Origin: Acidimicrobiia bacterium
GTDB lineage: Bacteria; Actinomycetota; Acidimicrobiia; Spongiisociales; UBA4744
Direction: 5' to 3'
NCBI GenBank assembly: GCA_029863625.1
Contig: JAOTUY010000001.1
Coordinates: 82,046 to 146,045 of the forward strand
Length of the DNA: 64,000 nucleotides
Shown here: one piece after another, positions 6,045 through 60,084 of the stretch
Numbering within the stretch: the stretch's first letter is position 1
How the letters are laid out: each line of letters begins with the position of its first letter
The notes under the pieces: generated by a model
The model's database searches: none
Told to the model about the DNA's origin: nothing
The model's input: the letters and a program-made list of their open reading frames with translations, nothing else
Program-made: the position numbers and the translations under genes

Positions 6045-6827
6045 ATGAGTCAGGAAAGAACGCTGCTGCGGCCGATCTACCGGCTGTATGAGGACCGTCT
6101 GCTTCGACAGATGGACCCACAGCGGCTGCCGCGCCACATTGGGATCATCCTCGACGGCCATCGACGGTATGCCCGGGCTGAAGGCCTGGCGGATTACGAG
6201 TCAAGTTATCGGGTCGGCATGCGGAAGTTCGACGAGTTCCTCGGATGGGCGCAACAGATCGACATTCCGGCGATCACCGGCTGGTTGTTGAGCAAAGAAA
6301 ACCTGGCTCGCCCGGCCGAAGAGCTGCAGCCGTACTTCGAGGTGTTGATCGGGCTATTTGAGAGGTTGCCCGAACTTGCTCAGCGCTACGGCTTCGAGCT
6401 GCGTTTCATCGGGAGTCTGGATCTGCTTCCCCCGGATCTGGTCCGTGCCGCGAAACAGGCTCAAGAACGCGCCGGCGATGGTCGCCGCCGGTTGACCATC
6501 GCGATTGGTTATGGGGGACGCCAAGAGATCGTCGACGCCGTCCATGATCTGGTTTCGTCGCTGGCCGCGGCCGGGATACCGGCAGAGGAGATGGCGGATC
6601 ACATTGACGCAGAAAGGATCGCCGACCATCTCTACACAGCCGATCTCCCCGATCCCGACCTCGTCATTCGCACGAGCGGCGAATCGCGACTGTCAGGGTT
6701 CCTCCTCTGGCAGTCGGCCTATTCAGAGTTCGCTTTTGTCGACGTGTACTGGCCGGCGTTTCGGCGCGTTGACTTCCTTCGAGCCTTGCGTGATTTCACT
6801 CGGCGCCACCGCCGGTTCGGCAAGTAG
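6045..6827 (+). CDS. Isoprenyl transferase (cis-prenyl diphosphate synthase, UppS family)
   Basis: RHIGIILDGHRRYA (variant of the DGNGRWA motif), AIGYGGRQEIVDAV, LVIRTSGESRLSGFLLWQSAYSEFAFVDVYWPAF. Confidence 0.85.
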   Translation: MSQERTLLRPIYRLYEDRLLRQMDPQRLPRHIGIILDGHRRYARAEGLADYESSYRVGMRKFDEFLGWAQQIDIPAITGWLLSKENLARPAEELQPYFEVLIGLFERLPELAQRYGFELRFIGSLDLLPPDLVRAAKQAQERAGDGRRRLTIAIGYGGRQEIVDAVHDLVSSLAAAGIPAEEMADHIDAERIADHLYTADLPDPDLVIRTSGESRLSGFLLWQSAYSEFAFVDVYWPAFRRVDFLRALRDFTRRHRRFGK

Positions 6828-7119
6828 GCGAAGCACCGGACAGCCGGAGGAGAGGGCGACGATGCGCTTTCTGCTCTTCAATCGTCGTGGTTGTGCCCGT
6901 GTGCTGCGCCCGAACCGGGCGCGTCGGGACCTTTTCAACAACCGGGCTCGCCGTGATTCCCGCAGCAATCCGATCGGTTCTTGAGTTTGATGGCGTTGTT
7001 CTTGGCTACGAGCGCCAGCTTCTCCAGAAACGGGAGATCCGAATTACGCCAGTTACCGACGACATGGCGGGGATGGGGTCGATTCATGGGCTGAACCTAG
7101 TCCGCCGCTCGATCGGCCG

Positions 7120-8556
7120 TCAGTTCTCGATGTACCGCAGCTGGCTCACCAGGTATTCGACGTGGTCGGGCCCGTACGATGACCACACGCGATAGAGGCA
7201 GCCGGGATGCTCGGCCACCTCGATGAGCGCCAGGTAGGCCTCTGGAGCCAATGCACCGGTCTCCGGGTCGAGATGCACGATCCGGTCGGCGGGCAGATCC
7301 ATACTGAGCTCCGGAAAGACCCAAACGTTGCTTCCATCATCGAAACGCAGCGTTGGATTCCATTCCTGCTGGTAGAAACCCTCGTGTTGCCACAAGCTCG
7401 TTCCGAATGCGCCCCGTCCGCAGTCCGCGCAGTAATCACCCGAGCCGTAGCGACCCGGCCCATCGGGAAGGTCCCAGGCGACGATTAGGGCGCTGTCACC
7501 GTTGGCCCGGCGGGCGGTGGCTCCTTCGCCCTCAGGCCCCAGATCGGCCAAACCCATCATCGGGCAGACCGTGGTGCCGAGGTCTTCGGCCCACTCTTCG
7601 AAGAACACCGACGGGACCTTCGAAGAGGCGAGTCCGGTCCGGTGCCAGGGTGCTTCACCCGGCTCACGGGTCTCGATGGTGGCGGGGTCGACGAGTGCCA
7701 CGGGCTCGGCTTGCATTCCCTCAACGAACCGAAGCGAGTTGAGCAGCGTCATGAGGTGTTCCTCACCGAGGAACGACCAGACGTTGTAGAGACAACCCTG
7801 ACCTTCGACCAACAGGTAGCTCAGCGCGGGAGCGCCCGAGCCGGGTTGCTCCAGGCCTTCCAGGCCATAGCCCGCCCGGCTGCCGTCATCCCAGGCGATG
7901 CGATCGACCCAGATATTCAGATCGTTGATGGTGCCGGTGATATCTGCTCCGGCCACCCCGTAGGCACCCCGGCCACAGTCCGGGCAATAGCCGCTGTCCC
8001 GGGACCGTCCCGGACCATCAGGGAGATCCCAGGCTACGGCCCACCCGCCGCTGAAATCGGCGGACCGGCTGACGCCGCCGGCGCTCAGTTCGAGGGGATC
8101 TGCCGGGTACAGTACCGAGCACCACATCTGATTCTCGGCCGTCGCCCAATCCTCGATGAGATGTTGCGGTATGGCCGCTTGGGGAAGAGGCTCGGCCGAC
8201 CAGGGTGCGACCCCTCCAGCGGTCGCACCGTTGCCGTTGAGGACTGCAGCGGTAGTGGTCGTCGTCGACCCCGGTTCGGTGGTGGTCGTGGCCGAGGGGT
8301 CCAACGTCGTGGTGGTCGAAACCTGGTTCACAGCCGGTTCGTCTGTTCCGCTCGGCAGGATCGTGGTCGCCAGCGCCACGGCGGTCAGGACAATGGCCAT
8401 GGAAGCCAGGCCCAGGGCCGGGCCCGAGAGGCGGAACCGGCGAGGTGAGCGACCCGCCATGATTCGGCTTGCCGTTCCAAGAGGGGCTCCCGGGAGGTCC
8501 TTGGGGTCGACGGGATTGGACTTCCGGACTCGATCAAAGGCATCGTCGGTATTCAT
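7120..8556 (-). CDS. Putative membrane-anchored anti-sigma factor with a duplicated CxxC-containing extracytoplasmic domain
   Basis: Sits immediately downstream of the ECF sigma gene with a 4-nt ATGA overlap. Short cytoplasmic N-terminus, one TM (LGLASMAIVLTAVALATTIL), Thr-rich linker. Two homologous roughly 130-aa repeats each carry WDLPDGPGR..YC(P/A)DCGRGA(Y/F)G. Confidence 0.55.
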   Translation of the reverse strand: MNTDDAFDRVRKSNPVDPKDLPGAPLGTASRIMAGRSPRRFRLSGPALGLASMAIVLTAVALATTILPSGTDEPAVNQVSTTTTLDPSATTTTEPGSTTTTTAAVLNGNGATAGGVAPWSAEPLPQAAIPQHLIEDWATAENQMWCSVLYPADPLELSAGGVSRSADFSGGWAVAWDLPDGPGRSRDSGYCPDCGRGAYGVAGADITGTINDLNIWVDRIAWDDGSRAGYGLEGLEQPGSGAPALSYLLVEGQGCLYNVWSFLGEEHLMTLLNSLRFVEGMQAEPVALVDPATIETREPGEAPWHRTGLASSKVPSVFFEEWAEDLGTTVCPMMGLADLGPEGEGATARRANGDSALIVAWDLPDGPGRYGSGDYCADCGRGAFGTSLWQHEGFYQQEWNPTLRFDDGSNVWVFPELSMDLPADRIVHLDPETGALAPEAYLALIEVAEHPGCLYRVWSSYGPDHVEYLVSQLRYIEN

Positions 8557-9098
8557 GATCGACCTCCGGAAATCGAAGCTAGAGCTTGTCCGAGCTGCTG
8601 CTTGGCGCGGTGAAGGCGGATGCTGGCTGCATTAGGAGAACATCCAAGGACGACGGCGATCTCCGAGATGGAGAGGTCCTCCCAACAGTGAAGACGGATG
8701 ATCTCTCGGTCTTGGAAACGAAGAATGGCCATCGCTTGGGCCACGTCGGCGTGCTCGCCGTACGATGGGTCGAGGGTGGATCCGTTGGTGAGGGACGTCA
8801 CTTTGGTTGACAACCGTGCCCGCCGGCGGAGGCCTCGATTGCTGTTGGCGAGCACCTTGCGGGCGATGCCGAATAACCAGAGACGAACTGCATCGGGCGG
8901 TGCCGACGTCCACCTCCGCCAGGCGATGGTGAAGGTCTCGGCAGCGATGTCCTCAGCGTCGACCGGGGACGAGCGCCGTTGTGCGTAGGCGAGTATGTCC
9001 CGATAGTGCTCGTCGAAGGCGCGCTGGAAACCCGCGTTGTCCTGGGAGCTTGAGACAGTTCCCACGAAAGTCGATCCCCTTGTAATGACTCCGCTCAT
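8553..9098 (-). CDS. ECF-type RNA polymerase sigma-70 factor
   Basis: Region 2 (DAEDIAAETFTIAWRRW) and region 4 HTH (LSISEIAVVLGCSPNAASIRLHRAKQQL). 181 aa. Confidence 0.85.
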   Translation of the reverse strand: MSGVITRGSTFVGTVSSSQDNAGFQRAFDEHYRDILAYAQRRSSPVDAEDIAAETFTIAWRRWTSAPPDAVRLWLFGIARKVLANSNRGLRRRARLSTKVTSLTNGSTLDPSYGEHADVAQAMAILRFQDREIIRLHCWEDLSISEIAVVLGCSPNAASIRLHRAKQQLGQALASISGGRS

Positions 9099-9268
9099 AC
9101 TCTCGCATGTCCGGATGCCACGTGGATCTTTCGGGCAGGTGGGGGCTCGTGTGCGGCGGGGAAGTCGGGAACTGAAGCGACCGCCCTTGGGGGAAGGCGG
9201 TCGCTATGGTCGGGCTAACACGGGAGGTGGGCTAACCACTCGCTTTATCGGTTCGGAATGGGGGATAC

Positions 9269-9829
9269 TTGAGGGATTTCTCGGCGAAACGTCGAGCTTT
9301 GATAGAGCACCTTCGGGACCATGCTTTACGCACCGACGGACCGTTCAAGCTGCGATCCGGGGCGGTTGCTTCCTGGTACCTCGATGCCCGTCAGACCACC
9401 TTCGATGGAGGCGGCGGTCTCATTGTCGCCGACGCCGTTCTCGAAGTGCTTGACGGTCGGGTTACTGCGATTGGTGGGATGACCATGGGCGCCGACCCCA
9501 TTGCCGTGGCCGCGGCGATGATCAGTACGCAGAATGGCCGGCCTCTGCGGTCGTTCTCTATCCGCAAGGAGGCCAAGAGCCACGGGGCGGGAGGCAGGCT
9601 GGTCGGCCCGGTGAGGTCTGGAGATGTCGTCGCCGTTCTCGAAGACACCACCTCCACCGGGGGAGCGTTGTTGGAAGCGCTCGAAGTGGCGGTAACCTCG
9701 GGTTTGCAGGTCGTGCAAGTGATGGCTCTCGTCGACCGAAGCGGGGGCGTCGTGCTGGAGCGGATAGCTGGAGCCGGGTTCCGATATCAGGCTCTGGTTA
9801 CTCCCGAGGATCTTGGAGTGGAGGAATGA
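9269..9829 (+). CDS. pyrE: Orotate phosphoribosyltransferase
   Basis: FKLRSGAVASWYLD, and PRPP-binding loop VAVLEDTTSTGGALLEA. Confidence 0.85.
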   Translation: MRDFSAKRRALIEHLRDHALRTDGPFKLRSGAVASWYLDARQTTFDGGGGLIVADAVLEVLDGRVTAIGGMTMGADPIAVAAAMISTQNGRPLRSFSIRKEAKSHGAGGRLVGPVRSGDVVAVLEDTTSTGGALLEALEVAVTSGLQVVQVMALVDRSGGVVLERIAGAGFRYQALVTPEDLGVEE

Positions 9830-10392
9830 GCGAAACGGTGGAGTTCGAAAAATCGGCGTGGAAAGTCTGGCTGCTGGCCTTGCTCGGGGTTCCTTTCCTG
9901 CTCATCGGGGTTGATTTCTTTTTCGCCCAGAAGTTGTTCGGAGTATTTCGAGACCTCATTTACGGGACCGAAGAGCTGCCGGCCTTCGAACCTCGCGACA
10001 CGATCATTGCTGCTTTGTTCATCATCGGCGGCGCCGTCCTGACGCTGTGGGGTCTCAAAGAACTCGTGTTTCCCAAGAAGGTCTTCGTCGCGGATCACGA
10101 GGGCATTCGCCTGGCGGTGAATGGACCCTTCCGCCCGGCGGTCCTGGTTCCGTGGGAGCTGCTCACCGATGTTGGGTATGAGGTGATCAACGATGAGGGT
10201 GACCTCTGCCCGTCGATCCGGGTCGAGGTGGCTGACCGAACGGGTTTGCCTGATCATCCGTGGGGGGCCCGCTGGGTCGGTTCGAACGAACTGCTGATCG
10301 ATACGGCCGGCTGGTCACCACCGGCCTCCGATATCGTTGATTCGTTGGTGCGTCTCCGTCAGTCGGTCGACGTTGAGGCTTCCGCCGAATAG
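9826..10392 (+). CDS. Hypothetical membrane protein (2 TM plus a soluble domain)
   Basis: Open frame with an ATGA overlap to pyrE. Hydrophobic segments [22 protein letters not shown] and [18 protein letters not shown]. Confidence 0.55.
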
Positions 10393-52830: not shown

Positions 52831-52914
52831 GATGGTCCCCGTTGGTCACGCTGATGGTAGATCGCACCGAGCCGGGGTGGGGCGGGCAGGGCAACCCCGG
52901 AAGGTTGCCGGAAG

Positions 52915-52985
52915 AGCGGGTGAGGGGAATTGAACCCCCGTTCCAAGCTTGGGAAGCTCGTGTTCTACCACTGAACTACACCCGC
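52915..52985 (-). tRNA. tRNA-Gly (anticodon CCC)
   Basis: The reverse complement folds as a cloverleaf: acceptor GCGGGTG/CACCCGC, D-arm GTTC-AGTGGTA-GAAC, anticodon stem/loop CGAGC-TTCCCAA-GCTTG, T-arm GGGGG-TTCAATT-CCCCT. CCA is not encoded. Confidence 0.85.
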
Positions 52986-53046: not shown

Positions 53047-53454
53047 TCAAACAAACCGGGTCCTGCGCGCGCCCTGGCAAATGCGATCAATGTCGCGGCC
53101 CGATCGACGAGACATACCCCCTGCGCAATATCGGCATGAGTCCCGACGCGCAGCTCCGGCGGGGCAGACCCGACGGGCCGGAACGTCGCGTACGACTTCG
53201 GGATACCTATTGGCAGGGTTTCGGTGAACAGGGCCGCTACTTGCCGGCCAGTCCGCCACCTGCACCAGGCCCTCAACTCGAGATCCATTCGGAGCGGTGA
53301 ACAGCACCGGGACCGTTCTTTTACTCCGAGGGGTGAGCTTGTTGCGGAGACCGGTGACATGCGGCATGGTGAGACGGCTGGCGTCGCCGCCGTAGCTGCG
53401 GGGATCCGGGATGTTCAGCTCGACGTCGTTGAGGTCGTCGATGTCTGGGTACAC
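53047..53454 (-). CDS. Hypothetical small protein (GTG start)
   Basis: 135-aa ORF 15 nt after the P450-fusion stop. Strong GC3 bias in the first roughly 40 codons, weaker afterwards. No recognisable motif. Confidence 0.3.
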   Translation of the reverse strand: MYPDIDDLNDVELNIPDPRSYGGDASRLTMPHVTGLRNKLTPRSKRTVPVLFTAPNGSRVEGLVQVADWPASSGPVHRNPANRYPEVVRDVPARRVCPAGAARRDSCRYCAGGMSRRSGRDIDRICQGARRTRFV

Positions 53455-53469
53455 GTCGCCGGCGCCGTC

Positions 53470-55614
53470 CTACGCGGTGCCGACTGCTCGCCTGCTCACG
53501 ACCACCGGTAGGTGGGTCGGGCCGGTCAGCCGGTCGGATTCGAGCATCGAGATCCGTTCCGGGTCGACTTGAAGCTCCATCTCGTGGAGCCGGGGCCTGA
53601 TCGCCGCCAGCGCTGCTTGGGCCTCCAACAACGCCAGGCGCGCCCCGGGGCACCGATGCGGCCCGGCACCGAACGCCAGGTTCGACACGAGATCTGCCAG
53701 GCGCGTGCTCTCGGCATCCGGAGTTTCGGCGCCGTTTGCTGCGGCGAGGTTCGCAGCAACCACGGTGCGCGCGGCGAGCGATCGCTCACCAATCGCCGTC
53801 TCCTGGGTCACCAGCCGGTACACCCGGGCGACAGGTGGCCGGGTCCATAACACCTGTCCAAGGAGCGCTTGGTCCGATAGGCGCGCCCTGGGCGGCACGC
53901 CGGCGGCGAACAACGCGACTAGGGCATTGCCGATCAGGTGCGTCGTCGTTTCGTTGCCGGCCACTAGGAGCAAGCGGGCCACGCTGACCGCCTCCTCTGC
54001 GGCCAGGGCCTGGAGACCGTGCAGGATGGAGCTGATGAGATCCGCTCCGGGCGCCCGCTGCAGCCGGTCGACCAGGGCGACCAGCGCTTCTTCGAGTTCC
54101 GCGAGGTCACTCTCCGAATCGATCGAGTCACCTCCCTGCCTAACCCCGGTGCCGGCCAACACCACGGCGTCGGACCATCGGCCAAGGTCTGCAAGAGGCA
54201 CGCCGTCCAATCCGAGGAGCCATCCCATCGTGGCCACTGGGAGAGGTTTGGCGAAGTCGCCGACGAGATCACCGGTCCCTCTGGTGAAGATCTGTCCAAC
54301 GAGACGGGCGGCGAGTGATCGAACTTCGGGCTCGAGCGCAGCGACCCGGCTGTCCGACAGGGCCTGCGTCAGCGCCCGGCGCGTGCGTGTGTGCGCCGGC
54401 GGGTCGGCTCCCAGCAGAACGGGATCCGCCGCGGCCATAATGGAAGAGGAGAACGACTCCGGGTCGCGCAGCACTGTGATCACGTTGTCGCGGCCGGTGA
54501 TCTCGACAGGACTCGCCGGCGCTTTGTCGGCGGGTCGCCGGGAGGTGGTTGCGGATCGGATTGGGGTCACCTCGAGCGGCGGTGCCGGATCCGACGGGGA
54601 GACTTCGAGCCTCGTTTGTATCGCCCTCAAGGAGCTGAGCACAGTGGCGGCCGTGTAGTTCCGGTTCTGATCGAAGATGATCGATCCGGCGCCCCTTCCG
54701 GACGCTACCCATCCGTCATGGTGTTGCGGATCGACGACGTTGGGCGGCGGGATTCGTAGCGACGCCGACGCCGCCCACGCTCCATCCGCGGCTTGGGTGG
54801 CGAGGAGCCAGCCGGCTGCGCGCTCCAGTCGGTCCAACACACTGTCGGGGCCCCAGCGGGCCATGGTCTCCGCGGCACAGGCCGTGGCGAAGGATGACCC
54901 GCTGGGGTGCCAACGCGTCGCAACGGCCCCGACCACATCGACGCGTGAGCACATGGCGAGGGCCGCTCGCTGGAGTCGCTCCAGGTTGTCCGGTGCTGCG
55001 GCGCGCCCCAGCATGCGGCCCGCCAGCATGGTGGGGTACTCATCGTCGGCCCACCAGTATCCGGTCCAGGACCCGTCGGCGTTTTGCACCGATCTGAGGT
55101 ATTCGACGGCGCGCTGATGACCCGCATACTCGGGGATATCGGCGGCAGCCGTCACGCACACGTGATCGCCGCACCACCCCGCGAACGAGATGGAGCCCGA
55201 AAGCTTCGTGAATGCCCCGATCCTCCCGGCGGATCGGAACGTGGCGACCGCCCCCGACGGACGAGCGTGCCGGGCTACCAAGTCCAGCGCCCGGCTCGCC
55301 CGTCGGCCGCCGAGGTTGCCCATCCGTTCCGCCAGCTGCAGCGCCCACAATGTGGAGTCCGCGTCCGTTGGCACCCTCCGGTTGTAACCCCAGCCACGCT
55401 CCCAGCGCCGGCGACGCCGCAGCAGCCGCCATGCATGGCGCGCCGCCTCACGAGCCCGTTGCTCGGGCTCACCCGCGATCGCGACGGCGACATAGGCCGT
55501 CACCCACTCGTCGCTCGCTCCGGCCAGGGTGTCGAAGTCGCGCCACCAGCCTCGGCGGTCCCGACCGGTCAGCAGGAACTCGGTTGCCCGGTCGCGACCA
55601 GCCTGGATCTCCAT
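53470..55614 (-). CDS. Fusion protein: N-terminal class-II terpene-cyclase-like (squalene-hopene-cyclase repeat) domain plus C-terminal cytochrome P450
   Basis: N-domain: FLLTGRDRRGWW, DEWVTAYVAVAIAG, VPTDADSTLWALQLA (DxDD to DADS), QNADGSWTGYWW, QAADGAWAAS (QW motifs). C-domain: I-helix LVAGNETTTHLIGNA, heme loop FGAGPHRCPGARLA. ATG at 55614. Track residues 1-162 are an Arg-rich artefact overlapping the next gene. Confidence 0.75.
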   Translation of the reverse strand: MEIQAGRDRATEFLLTGRDRRGWWRDFDTLAGASDEWVTAYVAVAIAGEPEQRAREAARHAWRLLRRRRRWERGWGYNRRVPTDADSTLWALQLAERMGNLGGRRASRALDLVARHARPSGAVATFRSAGRIGAFTKLSGSISFAGWCGDHVCVTAAADIPEYAGHQRAVEYLRSVQNADGSWTGYWWADDEYPTMLAGRMLGRAAAPDNLERLQRAALAMCSRVDVVGAVATRWHPSGSSFATACAAETMARWGPDSVLDRLERAAGWLLATQAADGAWAASASLRIPPPNVVDPQHHDGWVASGRGAGSIIFDQNRNYTAATVLSSLRAIQTRLEVSPSDPAPPLEVTPIRSATTSRRPADKAPASPVEITGRDNVITVLRDPESFSSSIMAAADPVLLGADPPAHTRTRRALTQALSDSRVAALEPEVRSLAARLVGQIFTRGTGDLVGDFAKPLPVATMGWLLGLDGVPLADLGRWSDAVVLAGTGVRQGGDSIDSESDLAELEEALVALVDRLQRAPGADLISSILHGLQALAAEEAVSVARLLLVAGNETTTHLIGNALVALFAAGVPPRARLSDQALLGQVLWTRPPVARVYRLVTQETAIGERSLAARTVVAANLAAANGAETPDAESTRLADLVSNLAFGAGPHRCPGARLALLEAQAALAAIRPRLHEMELQVDPERISMLESDRLTGPTHLPVVVSRRAVGTA

Positions 55615-55622
55615 CTGAGAGG

Positions 55623-56252
55623 TCAGCAGGATGCGGTGATGTACGTCGCGTTGGGGGCCAGCACTTGTGCGCCGGCGTTGGCAGTGGGGCCGCTGCTCCA
55701 GCTTCCGCCGCTGAGCACCTTCACCGACACCTGCCCGGTCGACGGATTCCACACGACGAACTCGCCGGCCCTCAGTCCGCCCCCGATGGCCGATGTTTCG
55801 CCGCAGAAGGCGTTCACCGTCGCTCCGCCGGGGTTGATCGTGCCTCGGCCGACGTAGAAGCGGTTCTCCAGCGCCCACGAGTCGAGCTCGCCGCCGCCGC
55901 ACGAGTGGACGATCTCGTGAAAGACCGTCACGTCCGTGTCCGCTTGCACATTGGGTGGTAACGCCAGCGCACACATGTTGATGCTGTCCCCGTCCCGCGG
56001 TGCGGTGCCGAAGATGCCCGCCCGGCAGCTGCCTCCGAGACAGTCCACGTTCACCGACGCAATCGTCTTGCCGGCGAGCCGGTTCGCCAGGGTGGCGCAC
56101 TCGCCGCCCAACGCAGCCACCTGGGCCCGAATCGTGTTTTGCATGAAGTTGAAAGCGGAGGTGATCGCGTTGCGGTCGTTGAGATTGCAGTTCGGTACCT
56201 CCGTACCGCCTCCGGACCAGCTGCCGCCCTCGGTGTGTGTTACGAACGGCAT
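55623..56252 (-). CDS. Cys-rich HExxH zinc-metallopeptidase-like protein
   Basis: VTVFHEIVHSCGGGE (HExxHxxGxxE). About 10 Cys, no signal peptide. ATG at 56252 lies 7 nt after the upstream stop, with GAGG. Confidence 0.55.
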   Translation of the reverse strand: MPFVTHTEGGSWSGGGTEVPNCNLNDRNAITSAFNFMQNTIRAQVAALGGECATLANRLAGKTIASVNVDCLGGSCRAGIFGTAPRDGDSINMCALALPPNVQADTDVTVFHEIVHSCGGGELDSWALENRFYVGRGTINPGGATVNAFCGETSAIGGGLRAGEFVVWNPSTGQVSVKVLSGGSWSSGPTANAGAQVLAPNATYITASC

Positions 56253-56259
56253 GGAAGCC

Positions 56260-56721
56260 TCAGGACTCGAACTGCCACAGCACAAGCACGCCGCGGCTCA
56301 GTGGAAGGGGTACCTTCGAACCCTCGCTCGCGGCGCGGTACGAGCCGACCTGGGCCCGGCGGGCGTACATCGCCGCATCGGCGGGCTCGAGTGCGATCTC
56401 CCATCGAACCACGCCACCATCCGGAAGCTCTTGCGCACTCTGCAGCTTGATGGGCTCCTCGAGGTTCTGACCCTCGAACGGCGACTCGCCCTCCATCTCG
56501 ATGGGCTCGCCGTCACGCTCGTAGAGCTGCAATTTCCACGCCGCCACCTTCTTCTCCTCCATGAAGTGCACCTCGATGGAGGCTTTGCGTCCGTTGGCAT
56601 CGACGAGCTGGCCGGACCAGACGCTACGTTCTTGGGCCACGCGCGCTCCTTTCGCTGAGCGGCTCGGCGATGCCGGGCGTAGCCGGGACACCGCAGCCGG
56701 GTGGTCGTAGGCCGAAAGCAT
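56260..56721 (-). CDS. Hypothetical 153-aa acidic protein
   Basis: ORF between the acyltransferase and the HExxH gene. No known motif. Confidence 0.45.
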   Translation of the reverse strand: MLSAYDHPAAVSRLRPASPSRSAKGARVAQERSVWSGQLVDANGRKASIEVHFMEEKKVAAWKLQLYERDGEPIEMEGESPFEGQNLEEPIKLQSAQELPDGGVVRWEIALEPADAAMYARRAQVGSYRAASEGSKVPLPLSRGVLVLWQFES

Positions 56722-56731
56722 ACACTCGGGC

Positions 56732-57691
56732 TCACGCCTTGTAGGCGATTCTTTCGATGGCCTCGAGCACCGAGGACGAGTCGTCGTGGGCGCTCATCGT
56801 CGGCAGGACTGCGGCCCCGCCGGCAGCTTCAGTCACTGCGGTGGACAAGATGGGGTGAGGGCCGACTTCGACGAAGGTTCGTATGCCGGCGCGCGCCATG
56901 GAGCGGACAGCGGATACAAAGAGTGCCGGTTCGGACATGACGCGCCACCAGTAGTCGATTGTCAGGCGAGACCCATCGATGGCAGCGCCCTTGAGCGAGG
57001 AGTAGAAGGGCGCCGGTGCCGAGCGGGGCCGGATCGACGAGGCGGCGGCACGGAACGGCTCGCGCAGCGGCTCCATCTCGGCGCAGTGGAAGGCATACCG
57101 CAGCGTCTGCCGGCGCGTCCCGAGGCCCCGGGCGGCCACCACTGCCAGCGCCGAGTCGACGGCGCCCTCTTCGCCGGTGATCACGGTTGCCGTCGGGCTG
57201 AGCTCGACGGCGATCCAGACGTCGTCTCGTCCGTCGATGGTTTCCCGTACCGCCTCGGCTGATGCCAGCACCAGGGCCATTTGTCCGGACCGTAGCGGGC
57301 GTCGGATGGCCTCCGCTTCGGCGCCGGCAACGGCGATGGCGTCCTCCAGGCTCAATGAGCCGATGGACCACGCCGCGGCGAGTTCCCCCATGCTGAGACC
57401 CACCACCGCGTCCGGCGCCACCCCGGCATCGGCTAGCATCGCCGCTAACCCGATTTGAACGGCCGTGAGCACGGGCTGCACCCGATCCGGCTCTGCGTCG
57501 GAACCTCCCAGCCGCGACACCTTCTCGAGAATCGACCAGCCGAACTGATGTCGGCAGGCGGCATCGCAATCGGCCATCGCTTTGGCGAAGGCGGCATTGT
57601 CTAGTAGCAGTCCGTCGGCCATCCCGGGCCACTCCCCGCCCTGGGAGGAGAACACGAAGGCCACGGCGCCGGTCGTGAATAGGTCGTTCAC
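56732..57691 (-). CDS. Stand-alone acyltransferase (malonyl-CoA:ACP transacylase / PKS-AT fold) with a GLSMG active site
   Basis: AFVFSSQGGEWPGM (compare FVFPGQGSQ), GLSMGELAAAW (GHSxG variant), AFHCAEM. GTG at 57691 overlaps the upstream stop as GTGA. 320 aa, which matches FabD length. Confidence 0.7.
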   Translation of the reverse strand: MNDLFTTGAVAFVFSSQGGEWPGMADGLLLDNAAFAKAMADCDAACRHQFGWSILEKVSRLGGSDAEPDRVQPVLTAVQIGLAAMLADAGVAPDAVVGLSMGELAAAWSIGSLSLEDAIAVAGAEAEAIRRPLRSGQMALVLASAEAVRETIDGRDDVWIAVELSPTATVITGEEGAVDSALAVVAARGLGTRRQTLRYAFHCAEMEPLREPFRAAASSIRPRSAPAPFYSSLKGAAIDGSRLTIDYWWRVMSEPALFVSAVRSMARAGIRTFVEVGPHPILSTAVTEAAGGAAVLPTMSAHDDSSSVLEAIERIAYKA

Positions 57692-58677
57692 GGCTGAATG
57701 TGGGATGCGCCGAACCACGAGTACACCACCGAGGGCAGGGCCGAGTGGAGCCAGCCCGGTACCTGCGCCCCGGCTGGGAGCCGATGCCGCCATTCCTCGA
57801 GGCTGTGCACTCCACGGGAGACGATGCGGGCTGCCACGGCGGCCGGCGGGCGGGACCGGAGCGCGATCTCCACCAGGTTGGGCTCGTTTGCCTGCTCGTC
57901 CGCCTCGATGTCCATCGCGTCGTCGATTGCGCCGATGAACGCGCCGACGCCGAACATCCAACGGAGGTGCCACAGGAAGGTCGCCCGATCGGGAGATTGC
58001 GCCGGGAGCCACGCGGGCAGTCCCAGGACCACGAAGGGGAGCGCCGCTTTACGACGGAGCAAACCCGGCACCGCCAGTACCCCCGGTCGCGTCAGCGCCA
58101 CCTCAGCGGCGTGCATGCGCACCACGGCGTCGTCAAGTAACCGCCGAACCGTCTGGGCGGCGTCGCCGTGGGGGAGATCGTCCACCTCCGAGAAGTACCG
58201 CCTGACGAGCAGCGCCACGGCTCGGCCCGGCGCGAGCAAGTCTCGGGACCGTCGCCGAGGAGCGCCAGCCCAGTGCCCTAACAGGTCGAAAACGTCTTCG
58301 GGGAGCAAGCCGTTCGCTGGGATCCCTGCGTCGAGAAACGCGTCGTAGACCGTGACGATGAGGTTGGCGAGCGCCCCGATGTCGGCGACCCATTGCTCGA
58401 GGTCTGGTGCCAGGCCCAGCGGTGCGATCAAGAAACGGGTGAGGAGCCAGCCGAAGCCCATGATGCGGACAGGGTCGTCCGGACCCAGCGCCGTGGGCAG
58501 GGTGGCCATCGCGTCGAGCCAGGTCCTCGACCCCGCCAGCGGATCCAGGTCCCTCCAGAGACGTGCCCCTTGGCGCGACACGTGCCCGCGCACGTCCTGG
58601 TAGACGTGCGCGGACGGGATCAACTCGCGTGTCATCAGCTCATCCCAGACGAGCCGGCGAACAGTCACCGCAGGCAA
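57688..58677 (-). CDS. All-alpha protein with Asp-rich motifs at class-I terpene-synthase-like spacing (function unknown)
   Basis: VYDAFLD (roughly residue 112) and IDDAMDIEADE (roughly residue 252), about 140 aa apart. 329 aa with no TM. Translationally coupled to the acyltransferase. Confidence 0.5.
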   Translation of the reverse strand: MPAVTVRRLVWDELMTRELIPSAHVYQDVRGHVSRQGARLWRDLDPLAGSRTWLDAMATLPTALGPDDPVRIMGFGWLLTRFLIAPLGLAPDLEQWVADIGALANLIVTVYDAFLDAGIPANGLLPEDVFDLLGHWAGAPRRRSRDLLAPGRAVALLVRRYFSEVDDLPHGDAAQTVRRLLDDAVVRMHAAEVALTRPGVLAVPGLLRRKAALPFVVLGLPAWLPAQSPDRATFLWHLRWMFGVGAFIGAIDDAMDIEADEQANEPNLVEIALRSRPPAAVAARIVSRGVHSLEEWRHRLPAGAQVPGWLHSALPSVVYSWFGASHIQP

Positions 58678-59015
58678 TGGGACACATCCGCAAAGAGGCC
58701 GAGAACGAGATCACGCTCTACAGCGCCGCTCAGTTTCGGCACCTGGGCTGGACCGACCATGCGTCACCCTACCCGCGGCGCCAAGGTGCCGACGTAGGTC
58801 GAGGGTACGGGTCGTCGGCAGAAGGCTCAATTGATTCGTCTGATACGTCCCGATCATAGCCGCCGCCTTCGCTGGTGCTGCCTCCGCTCCGAGCGGCAAC
58901 CGAAAGGGGCCGATGGGCTTGACCGGGATGTCGCCCATGCGTCGACGAGGTGAGCCGTGATGCCGGTGTCACGTGGAGTGGGTGTTGCTTCCGTGCGTGA
59001 CTCCGACTCCGGACA

Positions 59016-59231
59016 CTATGAGAAGACGCTGGCCCCTCCCCACACGGCCAAGATAACTCCGACGGCGCCCAGGAACCAGGCTCGACCCGGCCGGAATTCA
59101 CCTTCCACTCCCCGCGGGCGCTCGCCTCGCCGATTCTTGAAGATGGCCAAGCCGTTGCCTAGGACCATCGCCAGTCCGATGGCCAGCACCACCTCAGGGA
59201 ACAAGCTCTCCAACCCAAAGATGTCATCCAT
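59016..59231 (-). CDS. Small 2-TM membrane protein
   Basis: 71 aa, two hydrophobic helices. No clear Shine-Dalgarno. Confidence 0.35.
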   Translation of the reverse strand: MDDIFGLESLFPEVVLAIGLAMVLGNGLAIFKNRRGERPRGVEGEFRPGRAWFLGAVGVILAVWGGASVFS

Positions 59232-59277
59232 CGGCCGTCACGGTAGCGGGTATGGTTGCTCTCTCGAAAGGAGCTGC

Positions 59278-60084
59278 ATGCCGAGGCACTGCTACGTCCT
59301 TCGTGTCTTCACTCGGGGCGATGAGGGTGGCAACCATTTGGGGGTTGTCACCGACGCCACCAGCCTGACTACCGCATCGATGCAGGCCATCGCCGTCGAT
59401 CTGGGGTTCTCAGAGACCATCTTCCTGGAATGGAGAGAAGGAGAGATCCCGTATGTGCGGATCTTCACGCCGGGAGCCGAACTTCCGTTCGCCGGTCACC
59501 CGCTCGTCGGGATGGCATGGACACTGAAGACCCTCGGCCCGGGTGGTCCCGACACCCTGCGGTGTGAGGCCTTTGAAGTTGCCATCCGCCTCGACGGGGA
59601 ATTGACGGCGATCGAGGTTCCGCTGGGACAGACGGTTCGTCCCGTACCGGAAGCCGCTTCGCTCGCAGCCGCGGTCGGCCTGCCGGAACCGGTGTCGGCC
59701 CGGTGGGTGGACATGCCCTTGCCCTACCTTCTGATCGAAGTCGCCTCGGCGGCAGCCGTTTCGGCGGCTGAACCTGCCTCCGAAGCAGAATTCGCCAGGG
59801 CCGGAGCAGACATGGTCTATTTGTACGCCTTTGCCTCTCCCTCGGTGGTGCAGGCTCGTTTCTTTGCACCCGGTCACGGCGTGTTTGAGGATCCTGCGAC
59901 CGGAAGCGCCGCCGTTGCTCTGTCCGCAGCGCTGCGCGCCGAGGGACGTGCATCAGGCCGCCTCGAGATCCGCCAGGGGTCCGAGATAGGCCATCCATCT
60001 TCCATCAACTTGGAATGGCACGGTGCCCAAGCGAGCATCGGTGGGACGGTCCGAAAGGACGAGGTACGGTGGCTGGATATTTGA
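59278..60084 (+). CDS. PhzF-family (phenazine biosynthesis-like / DAP-epimerase fold) isomerase
   Basis: YVLRVFTRGDEGGNHLGVV N-terminus, roughly 268 aa, AAAGGAG Shine-Dalgarno. Confidence 0.7.
   Translation: MPRHCYVLRVFTRGDEGGNHLGVVTDATSLTTASMQAIAVDLGFSETIFLEWREGEIPYVRIFTPGAELPFAGHPLVGMAWTLKTLGPGGPDTLRCEAFEVAIRLDGELTAIEVPLGQTVRPVPEAASLAAAVGLPEPVSARWVDMPLPYLLIEVASAAAVSAAEPASEAEFARAGADMVYLYAFASPSVVQARFFAPGHGVFEDPATGSAAVALSAALRAEGRASGRLEIRQGSEIGHPSSINLEWHGAQASIGGTVRKDEVRWLDI

What the first reader, a model, noticed from the sequence alone, without database searches (positions are those of the whole stretch)
55623..56252. Cys-rich protein with HEIVHSCGGGE: metzincin-like HExxHxxGxxE site, no signal peptide
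The HExxH plus Gly at +3 arrangement resembles metzincins and snapalysin (HExxHxxGxxH/D), but the third ligand position is Glu.

There are about 10 cysteines in 210 aa and no export signal, and the gene sits inside the P450 operon.

It could be a peptidase acting on a pathway intermediate or peptide, or a non-proteolytic zinc enzyme.
Basis: seen in the sequence. Interest (0 to 1): 0.6.

Follow-up and report, generated by a model that had tools for sequence, protein, structure and literature searches.

The report
Cytoplasmic deuterolysin-like zinc protease in terpene cassette
The gene is real and encodes an unannotated, distant relative of the fungal zinc protease deuterolysin that has no export signal and, in nearly every genome carrying it, sits beside a small partner protein and two terpene-building enzymes, which suggests an undescribed pathway linking proteins or peptides to terpenoids.

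Summary
The ORF (55623..56252, minus strand, 209 aa) is real and conserved. HExxH is invariant in 38 close homologues.

No Pfam or NCBIfam model matches, and only 177 relatives exist among 1.84 billion representatives. Some of these are tips of RHS toxins.

The gene always follows a small all-beta protein of about 125 aa. In all but one of the loci with enough flank, an MstE-type class II terpene cyclase and a class I terpene-synthase-fold enzyme are also present (the archaeal cyclase match is weak). The window's clade adds an acyltransferase and a P450, here fused to the cyclase.

Best guess (about 0.4): it is the proteolytic component of a peptide/protein-terpenoid maturation cassette. A protease-inhibitor (toxin-like) pair or a non-proteolytic role remain open.

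The parts
55623..56252 (-). Gene for the 209-aa HExxH protein: an aspzincin (M35, deuterolysin)-like zincin core (about residues 17-135) followed by a helix and a small beta domain (about 143-200). No signal peptide.
55866..55919 (-). Active-site segment HEIVHSCGGGELDSWALE. Contains H112, E113 and H116 (zinc ligands and general base, inferred), G120, E122, D124 (probable third ligand) and E129.
   Evidence: Translation. Conservation. D124 aligned to deuterolysin D143.
56260..56640 (-). Gene for the 126-aa small partner protein. It has a GTG start preceded by AAGGAG and is predicted all-beta. It carries an invariant WxGxxxDxxG motif near the N-terminus and G-x-x-[VI]-x-W-x-[FY] near the C-terminus. 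Its stop lies 7 nt before the HExxH ATG.
   Evidence: It lies immediately upstream of the HExxH gene in every locus. Beta periodicity.
53470..55614 (-). Gene for a 714-aa fusion protein. The N-terminal part is an MstE-type monodomain class II terpene cyclase (about 54595..55614) with the VPxDADST acid motif and two QxxxGxW motifs. The C-terminal part is a cytochrome P450 (about 53470..54490).
   Evidence: Pfam and NCBIfam. Profile against PDB: MstE E = 2.4e-79 over full length. Alignment. P450 is a separate gene in L009 and L010.
57688..58677 (-). Gene for a 329-aa class I terpenoid-synthase-fold enzyme (a terpene synthase or prenyltransferase). Invariant N105, D112xxxD116, K210 and D252-D253-xx-D256-xxx-D260-N267.
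56732..57691 (-). Gene for a stand-alone PKS-type acyltransferase (about 319 aa). Its GTG start overlaps the stop of the upstream gene (GTGA). It is an accessory component of the window's clade.
   Evidence: Pfam Acyl_transf_1, E = 5e-57. Same position in L009 and L010. Start.

Best explanation
The gene encodes a cytoplasmic zinc metallopeptidase of the aspzincin (MEROPS M35, deuterolysin-like) fold, and it founds an unannotated family. Zinc is most likely held by H112, H116 and D124, with E113 as the general base. Cysteines 22/71 and 76/94 occupy the positions of deuterolysin Cys 6, 78, 85 and 103.

The protein works as a unit with the small all-beta protein encoded just upstream and translationally coupled to it. 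The pair belongs to a horizontally spread cassette whose other members are an MstE-type class II terpene cyclase and a class I terpene-synthase-fold enzyme. In this clade the cassette also has an acyltransferase and a P450.

The most likely role is the proteolytic step in maturing a ribosomal peptide or protein that carries a prenyl group, probably on a tryptophan, which the MstE-like enzyme then cyclises. The small protein, with its invariant C-terminal Trp segment, is the prime candidate substrate.

Shown: the gene and its conservation, the fold, homology to deuterolysin, the invariant residues, the gene linkage and the identity of the cyclase. Inferred: metal binding, peptidase activity, the substrate and the chemistry of the cassette. 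Rough confidences: about 0.85 for the fold and homology, about 0.7 for an active zinc hydrolase, and about 0.35-0.4 for the proposed role.

For: Homology. hhalign of the family profile against deuterolysin gives E = 1.8e-4, with HExxH and three cysteines in register. MAFFT alignment also matches TEVPNC22 to the mature N-terminus TEVTDC6, and D124 to D143. Distant members score just below the Pfam Aspzincin_M35 threshold (28.7 bits against 30).

Conservation.

Linkage. Small-then-HExxH is adjacent in all loci examined. The cyclase and the TS-fold gene are present in all but one locus with enough flank, although the archaeal L002/L013 toroid match is weak (E = 5.8e-5) and on the opposite strand. 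The linkage was found starting from either gene.

Precedent. The RiPP maturases NctPC and ChrPC join a prenyltransferase to an MstE-like cyclase and modify tryptophan (review PMC13290415).
Against: No activity, metal content or substrate has been shown.

The small protein looks like a folded all-beta domain rather than a usual leader peptide, and its Trp lies in a hydrophobic strand.

One locus (L012) has the small + HExxH pair without terpene genes nearby. No transporter is present in the cassette.

Domain relatives at the tips of RHS toxins point to a toxin ancestry.

Model coordinates could not be read, so the ligand geometry is unverified.
Confidence: 0.4

Rival explanations
1. Protease-inhibitor (toxin-antitoxin-like) pair. 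The HExxH protein is a potentially toxic protease effector related to RHS toxin tips. The small beta protein encoded upstream is its cognate inhibitor, immunity protein or chaperone rather than its substrate. The terpene enzymes would then make a lipid that regulates, modifies (for example on the Gly-rich C-terminal Trp tail) or accompanies the effector.
For: The same domain forms the C-terminal tip of an RHS polymorphic toxin and of secreted multidomain proteins. The upstream, translationally coupled small gene has an antitoxin-like arrangement. The small protein appears folded and all-beta. The pair occurs alone in L012. The small protein evolves faster than the protease. Degenerate protease paralogues are also paired with small-gene copies. 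A type VI secretion sheath gene lies next to the cassette in L009.
Against: No PADLOC defence model matches. The RHS toxin's own neighbours are unrelated to the small protein. Nothing explains why a toxin pair would keep a cyclase, a synthase-fold enzyme and, in one clade, a P450 and an acyltransferase, which is the typical make-up of a biosynthetic cluster. There are no copies on plasmids or phages.
Confidence: 0.25
2. Small-molecule terpenoid cluster. The synthase-fold enzyme and the MstE-type cyclase make a polycyclic terpenoid, as class I YtpB and class II SqhC do in Bacillus. The P450 and acyltransferase tailor it. The small beta protein binds or carries the lipid, and the HExxH protein is a zinc hydrolase of a non-peptide bond or a structural partner.
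Against: The catalytic E113 and both His are conserved as in active peptidases. Domain relatives are protein toxins. A lipid-carrier fold for the small protein is only a guess, with no Pfam or PDB match. No known terpenoid pathway needs an M35-like protein.
Confidence: 0.2
3. One reading: a metzincin- or snapalysin-like site HExxHxxGxxE, with Glu122 as third zinc ligand.
For: The literal motif is present, and E122 is 84% conserved. In the model E122 begins the helix that follows the active-site helix.
Confidence: 0.07
4. The protein is a catalytically inert, zincin-derived binding module (a pseudoenzyme).
For: Inactive paralogues exist in the family: HQMIL and HQLIL in L004 and L012, and Arg at both His positions in about 7% of the superfamily.
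Against: The window protein and all 38 close homologues keep H112, E113, H116, D124 and E129 intact.
Confidence: 0.05

Closest known systems
Deuterolysin / neutral protease II and other aspzincins (MEROPS M35; PDB 1eb6, 1g12, 2x3a)
   Different: There is no signal peptide or propeptide. GTxDxxYG is replaced by G-[TSG]-E-x-D-[SA]-[WE], which has one extra residue and no Tyr-Gly. The spacing from the second His to the Asp is 8, against 11 in deuterolysin. The helical C-terminal half of M35 is replaced by a helix plus a beta domain. An extra N-terminal Gly-rich hairpin carries an invariant Trp. The protein is below the Pfam M35 thresholds. It is encoded in a terpene cassette rather than as a secreted digestive or virulence protease.
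C-terminal toxin domains of RHS/YD-repeat polymorphic toxins
   Same: Same domain family (E = 1.4e-16 to the family profile), with HExxH, the Asp and the four cysteines conserved.
   Different: In those toxins the domain is the cargo of a secreted 1173-aa RHS shell, followed by an exported immunity candidate. Here it is a free-standing cytoplasmic protein with added N- and C-terminal elements and an unrelated upstream partner.
RiPP maturases NctPC and ChrPC (Hubrich et al. 2024, as summarised in PMC13290415)
   Same: A prenyl-transfer enzyme is combined with an MstE-like class II cyclase, acting on a ribosomal peptide. In ChrPC the prenyl-transfer enzyme is of the isoprenoid-synthase superfamily.
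   Different: The two activities are separate genes here. The prenyl-transfer candidate lacks the Trp-recognition Gln. No recognised precursor family (proteusin, Nif11, lasso) is present. An M35-like protease and an all-beta protein are obligatory partners. The primary paper could not be read, so overlap with its genome-mining set is unknown.
MstE, monodomain class II terpene cyclase (PDB 6sbb-6sbg)
   Same: The cassette's cyclase is a full-length homologue (E = 2.4e-79), and the D-x-D-[ST]-T acid motif is aligned.
   Different: This concerns the neighbouring gene, not the HExxH protein. In the window it is fused to a P450.
Metzincins / snapalysin (M7) and minigluzincins (selecase, proabylysin)
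   Same: HExxH zincin core. Minigluzincins are likewise small, and by my recollection are regulated by their own C-terminal tail.

Membership tests
Aspzincin / MEROPS M35 | HExxH on the active-site helix | tested here: met
   H112, E113 and H116 are invariant. They align to deuterolysin H128, E129 and H132.
Aspzincin / MEROPS M35 | Third zinc ligand is the Asp of a GTxDxxYG motif on the following helix | tested here: inconclusive
   D124 is 97% conserved, lies at the start of helix 122-132, and is aligned to D143 by MAFFT. However, the motif here is G-x-E-x-D-S-W, with one extra residue and no Tyr-Gly, and the model geometry could not be measured.
Aspzincin / MEROPS M35 | Overall fold similarity to solved M35 enzymes | tested here: met
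Aspzincin / MEROPS M35 | Match to the Pfam Peptidase_M35 / Aspzincin_M35 models above the gathering score | tested here: not met
   The window protein has no hit. One of 38 members reaches E = 0.007. The best distant member scores 28.7 bits against a cut-off of 30. Family profiles do not reach M35 PDB sequences with HMMER.
Aspzincin / MEROPS M35 | Cysteines at the positions of deuterolysin's Cys 6, 78, 85 and 103 (the disulfide pairing 6-78 and 85-103 is my recollection of the structure paper) | tested here: met
   C22, C71, C76 and C94 align to Cys 6, 78, 85 and 103, with conservation of 100%, 95%, 76% and 80%. Whether they form disulfides in a cytoplasmic protein is not testable here.
Aspzincin / MEROPS M35 | Secreted, made with a signal peptide and propeptide | tested here: not met
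   The conserved N-terminus starts at Met1 and has no hydrophobic segment.
Metzincins (incl. snapalysin M7) | HExxHxxGxxH/D, with the third ligand at +6 from the second His | tested here: not met
   Position +6 is Glu122, which is 84% conserved and Q or A in some close homologues.
Metzincins (incl. snapalysin M7) | Conserved Met-turn below the zinc site | tested here: not met
Gluzincins | Third ligand is a Glu on a separate helix, 18 or more residues after HExxH | tested here: inconclusive
   E129 is invariant in close homologues and 80% conserved in the superfamily, but it lies only 13 residues after H116 and on the same helix as D124.
NctPC/ChrPC-type terpenylated RiPP systems | MstE-like class II cyclase module | tested here: met
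   E = 2.4e-79 to MstE over the full length.
NctPC/ChrPC-type terpenylated RiPP systems | Prenyltransferase module of the ABBA or trans-IDS-like type, with the Gln before the second Asp-rich motif that recognises Trp | tested here: not met
   The partner has the isoprenoid-synthase fold with Asp motifs, but the Gln position is G, Q, R, W, L or S (criterion from PMC13290415).
NctPC/ChrPC-type terpenylated RiPP systems | Prenyltransferase and cyclase fused in one protein | tested here: not met
   They are separate adjacent genes in all loci. In the window the cyclase is fused to a P450 instead.
NctPC/ChrPC-type terpenylated RiPP systems | A precursor peptide with an acceptor Trp | tested here: inconclusive
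   The small protein has an invariant Trp near its C-terminus in 20 of 20 primary copies, but it looks like a folded beta domain and matches no known precursor family.

The most novel reading that the evidence does not exclude
The cassette is a protein or peptide terpenylation system of a new kind. The synthase-fold enzyme attaches a prenyl chain to an exposed, Gly-flanked tryptophan. Candidate sites are the small protein's C-terminal segment or the protease's own GGSW motifs, including the extreme C-terminal GGGSW[I/V] tail (Cys in the window's clade). The MstE-type enzyme cyclises the chain into a polycyclic lipid. The deuterolysin-like protease then processes or releases the product. This would be a polycyclic terpenoid modification of a folded protein, spread by horizontal transfer across at least six bacterial phyla and into an ammonia-oxidising archaeon.
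Probability: 0.25. Interest if true: 0.85.

Novelty: new variant of a known kind. Interest (0 to 1): 0.62.

Why it matters
M35 aspzincins are known as secreted, disulfide-bonded digestive or virulence proteases of fungi and some bacteria. This family is a cytoplasmic offshoot that keeps the catalytic residues and the cysteine scaffold. It has no database model. It is also locked into a compact, widely transferred cassette with an MstE-type terpene cyclase.

If the protease processes a terpenylated peptide or protein, the cassette would define a new class of ribosomal peptide-terpenoid hybrids. It would supply a dedicated protease, and split, portable prenyl-transfer and cyclase enzymes, for engineering. 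If instead the pair is a toxin and inhibitor, it would link terpenoid chemistry to bacterial conflict systems.

Either way the question is directly testable. A cultured carrier exists (Terrimonas ginsenosidimutans NA20), and the cassette has only four genes.

Tried and rejected
Family libraries. Pfam, NCBIfam, PADLOC and PHROGs scans of the HExxH protein found nothing. A lenient Pfam scan of all 38 members gave only scattered sub-threshold hits: M76, SprT and Aspzincin_M35.

Sequence searches against PDB. The single protein, the family profile, a 64-sequence superfamily profile and the distant member P0086 gave no M35 hit. They returned only a repeat-inflated resemblance of residues 169-202 to one PQQ-type propeller blade, plus chance hits. 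The link to deuterolysin came only from fold searches and from hhalign/MAFFT against the 1eb6 sequence.

Rejected readings. Metzincin/snapalysin was rejected (see the membership rows). A Zn-dependent LanC or prenyltransferase-beta reading of the toroid was rejected because it has no invariant Cys or His and matches MstE. A defence-system reading has no support from PADLOC.

Other dead ends.
- The RHS toxin's neighbours were tested as relatives of the small protein and are not related.
- The afdb50 fold library was unavailable.
- The primary papers on terpenylated RiPPs and on MstE are not in the library.
- Plasmid and phage collections hold no copy.
- The promoter and terminator scan was uninformative.

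Full report
**1. The observation.** The minus strand carries an ORF at 55623..56285. Its conserved start is the ATG at 56252, giving 209 aa. The segment 55866..55919 translates to HEIVHSCGGGELDSWALE. The frame is confirmed by 52 homologues in the 5.8-billion-protein collection, all unnamed and without Pfam domains. The identical protein comes from an Acidimicrobiia metagenome-assembled genome. The protein has 8 cysteines, not about 10. It has no hydrophobic N-terminus, and the N-terminus is conserved from Met1. Across 201 superfamily sequences D124 is 97% conserved, E113 94%, both His 87%, E122 84% and E129 80%. Cys22 is 100% conserved and Cys71 95%.

**2. What the protein is.** No Pfam, NCBIfam, PADLOC or PHROGs model matches. 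An AlphaFold2 model built from the family alignment is very confident (pLDDT 95.2, pTM 0.90). It has a zincin core, with the HExxH helix at 103-117 followed by helix 122-132 carrying D124 and E129. After the core come a further helix and a small beta domain.

- M1 aminopeptidases and minigluzincins score about 7.
- Metzincins (astacin, MMPs, snapalysin) score 5.5 or below.
- Foldseek independently gives deuterolysin as the only hit with probability 1.00.

I recovered the true 1eb6 sequence through the PDB sequence search. hhalign of the superfamily profile against it gives E = 1.8e-4 over 53 columns. H112/E113/H116 fall on H128/E129/H132, and C71, C76 and C94 fall on Cys78, Cys85 and Cys103. 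MAFFT also aligns TEVPNC22 with the mature N-terminus TEVTDC6, and D124 with the zinc ligand D143. By my recollection of the deuterolysin structure paper, 6-78 and 85-103 are its disulfides. Four of the protein's eight cysteines are therefore the conserved M35 cysteine positions.

Two distant members score just below the Pfam Aspzincin_M35 threshold. The protein is thus a remote, unannotated relative of M35, not a metzincin. The family is small: 177 representatives at E <= 1e-3 among 1.84 billion.

**3. Relatives in other architectures.** The same domain is the C-terminal tip of an RHS/YD-shell polymorphic toxin (P0127, directly after a DPLGL motif). It also follows FG-GAP repeats or a signal peptide in other proteins. 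The RHS toxin is followed by an overlapping ORF with a signal peptide, a likely immunity gene, which is unrelated to the partner protein described below. About 7% of the superfamily have Arg at both His positions. Second copies in two Bacteroidota loci read HQMIL and HQLIL, so inactive paralogues exist.

**4. Genomic context.** The gene is the fourth of five tightly packed minus-strand genes:

| Gene | Coordinates | Junction to next gene |
|---|---|---|
| 329-aa protein | 57688..58677 | stop overlaps the next start (GTGA) |
| PKS-type acyltransferase | 56732..57691 | 91 nt |
| 126-aa protein | 56260..56640 | 7 nt |
| HExxH gene | 55623..56252 | 8 nt |
| 714-aa fusion | 53470..55614 | - |

The block has 67-69% GC against about 62% around it. 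It lies between tRNA-Gly and a divergent PhzF-like gene.

I gathered loci through exact-protein look-ups and a scan of species-representative genomes. They come from Burkholderiales, Vicinamibacterales and other Acidobacteriota, five Bacteroidota lineages including the cultured Terrimonas ginsenosidimutans, Solirubrobacteraceae, Micrococcales, a deltaproteobacterium and a Nitrososphaeraceae archaeon. HMMs for the four proteins show the following:

- In every locus one or two small genes come directly before the HExxH gene.
- In all but one locus with enough flank there is also a toroid gene followed directly by the 330-aa gene, in one of two gene orders. In the archaeal locus the toroid match is weak and on the opposite strand.
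- Starting instead from homologues of the 330-aa protein leads back to the same cassette.
- The exception is a Sediminibacterium locus with only the small + HExxH pair.
- The acyltransferase and a separate P450 recur at the same positions in L009 and L010. They are therefore accessory enzymes of this clade, and the window's cyclase-P450 fusion is a local event.

**5. The partners.**

- *Toroid.* It is a full-length homologue of MstE, the monodomain class II terpene cyclase (E = 2.4e-79). The acid motif is aligned (MstE GDADTT, cassette PxDADST). It has two QxxxGxW motifs and no invariant Cys or His.
- *Small protein.* It has no relative in Pfam or PDB. It shows beta-type hydrophobic periodicity in 78 of 119 windows. 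It has an invariant WxGxxxDxxG motif near the N-terminus and an invariant Trp in G-x-x-[VI]-x-W-x-[FY] near the C-terminus, often followed by a short polar or basic tail.

**6. How it most likely works.** A review (PMC13290415) describes the RiPP maturases NctPC and ChrPC (Hubrich et al. 2024). In these a prenyltransferase domain prenylates a peptide tryptophan and a fused MstE-like domain cyclises the prenyl chain. The cassette found here contains the same two kinds of enzyme as separate genes, plus an obligatory protease-fold protein and a small Trp-bearing protein.

My best explanation (about 0.4) is that the HExxH protein is the zinc peptidase of such a peptide/protein-terpenoid pathway and acts on the small protein. 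Several findings argue against it:

- The Gln that marks Trp-specific prenyltransferases is absent.
- The small protein seems folded.
- The pair can occur alone.
- Domain relatives are toxins.

Hence two serious rivals remain: a protease-inhibitor (toxin-like) pair at about 0.25, and a non-proteolytic role in a small-molecule terpenoid pathway of the YtpB/SqhC type at about 0.2.

**7. Unexplained features.** The protein carries up to three Gly-flanked GGSW motifs: an invariant W12 in an N-terminal hairpin, W185, and in about half of the homologues an extreme C-terminal tail GGGSW[I/V] or GGGGGGW(I). That tail is replaced by a terminal Cys in the window's clade and is absent in others. It could be a prenyl acceptor or an autoinhibitory tail. 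Four scaffold cysteines in a protein with no export signal are also unexplained.

**8. Verdict.** This is a real, conserved, new family of aspzincin-like zincins in an unexpected cytoplasmic and biosynthetic setting, so I rate it a new variant of a known kind. Its biochemical role is unproven but directly testable.

Noticed in passing
window 53470..55614 (-): The MstE-type class II terpene cyclase is fused in frame to a cytochrome P450. In the related loci L009 and L010 the P450 is a separate gene after the HExxH gene.
   Followed up: partly
window 53400..58700, with tRNA-Gly(ccc) at 52914..52985: The cassette is a GC-rich block (0.67-0.69 against about 0.62) lying between a tRNA gene and housekeeping genes, which is consistent with horizontal acquisition. 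No repeats marking island ends were looked for.
   Followed up: no
HExxH protein residues about 169-202 (window about 55647..55748): Weak resemblance to a single PQQ-type beta-propeller blade (designed 'Bagel' proteins). The overall score is inflated by the repeats, and each repeat alone is insignificant.
   Followed up: partly
C-termini of HExxH homologues, e.g. L001 8001..8648, L019 7977..8531, L014 7995..8597: A Gly-rich tail ending in Trp (GGGSW[I/V] or GGGGGGW[I]) sits at the very C-terminus in about half of the homologues, including the deepest branches. The window's clade ends in Cys or Cys-Pro instead, and some homologues have neither.
   Followed up: partly
L004 6831..7436 and L012 6528..7145: Second HExxH-family copies with degenerate motifs (FHQMILAC, FHQLILAC), so probable pseudoenzymes. 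Each sits next to a small-gene copy or fragment.
   Followed up: partly
L012 (Sediminibacterium sp. MAG), 6528..8648: The small + HExxH pair occurs without a cyclase or synthase-fold gene within 8 kb. It is flanked by glycoside-metabolism, SDR and rRNA-methyltransferase genes.
   Followed up: yes
L023 5001..8522 and 8509..9066: An RHS/YD-shell polymorphic toxin carries this domain as its C-terminal tip, straight after a DPLGL motif. It is followed by an overlapping 185-aa ORF with a signal peptide, a likely immunity protein.
   Followed up: partly
L002 / L013 (Nitrososphaeraceae archaeon), 7219..9950: An ammonia-oxidising archaeon carries two small genes, the HExxH gene and the synthase-fold gene, in a region full of short unknown ORFs. 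The cyclase is only weakly detectable, on the opposite strand. This suggests transfer between domains of life.
   Followed up: partly
L009 8377..9834: A type VI secretion sheath gene (VipA/VipB domains) lies directly after the cassette's P450 in a Burkholderiales genome.
   Followed up: no
window 56732..57691 (-): A stand-alone PKS-type acyltransferase with no acyl carrier protein or ketosynthase nearby. Its start overlaps the preceding stop codon (GTGA).
   Followed up: partly
window 53047..53454 (-): A 135-aa ORF with no Pfam match lies between the end of the P450 gene and the tRNA gene. It is unclear whether it is a real gene.
   Followed up: partly
window 58957..60084 (+): A PhzF-family (phenazine biosynthesis-like) gene is divergently oriented from the cassette. 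It is not conserved next to the cassette in the other loci whose neighbouring genes were annotated.
   Followed up: partly
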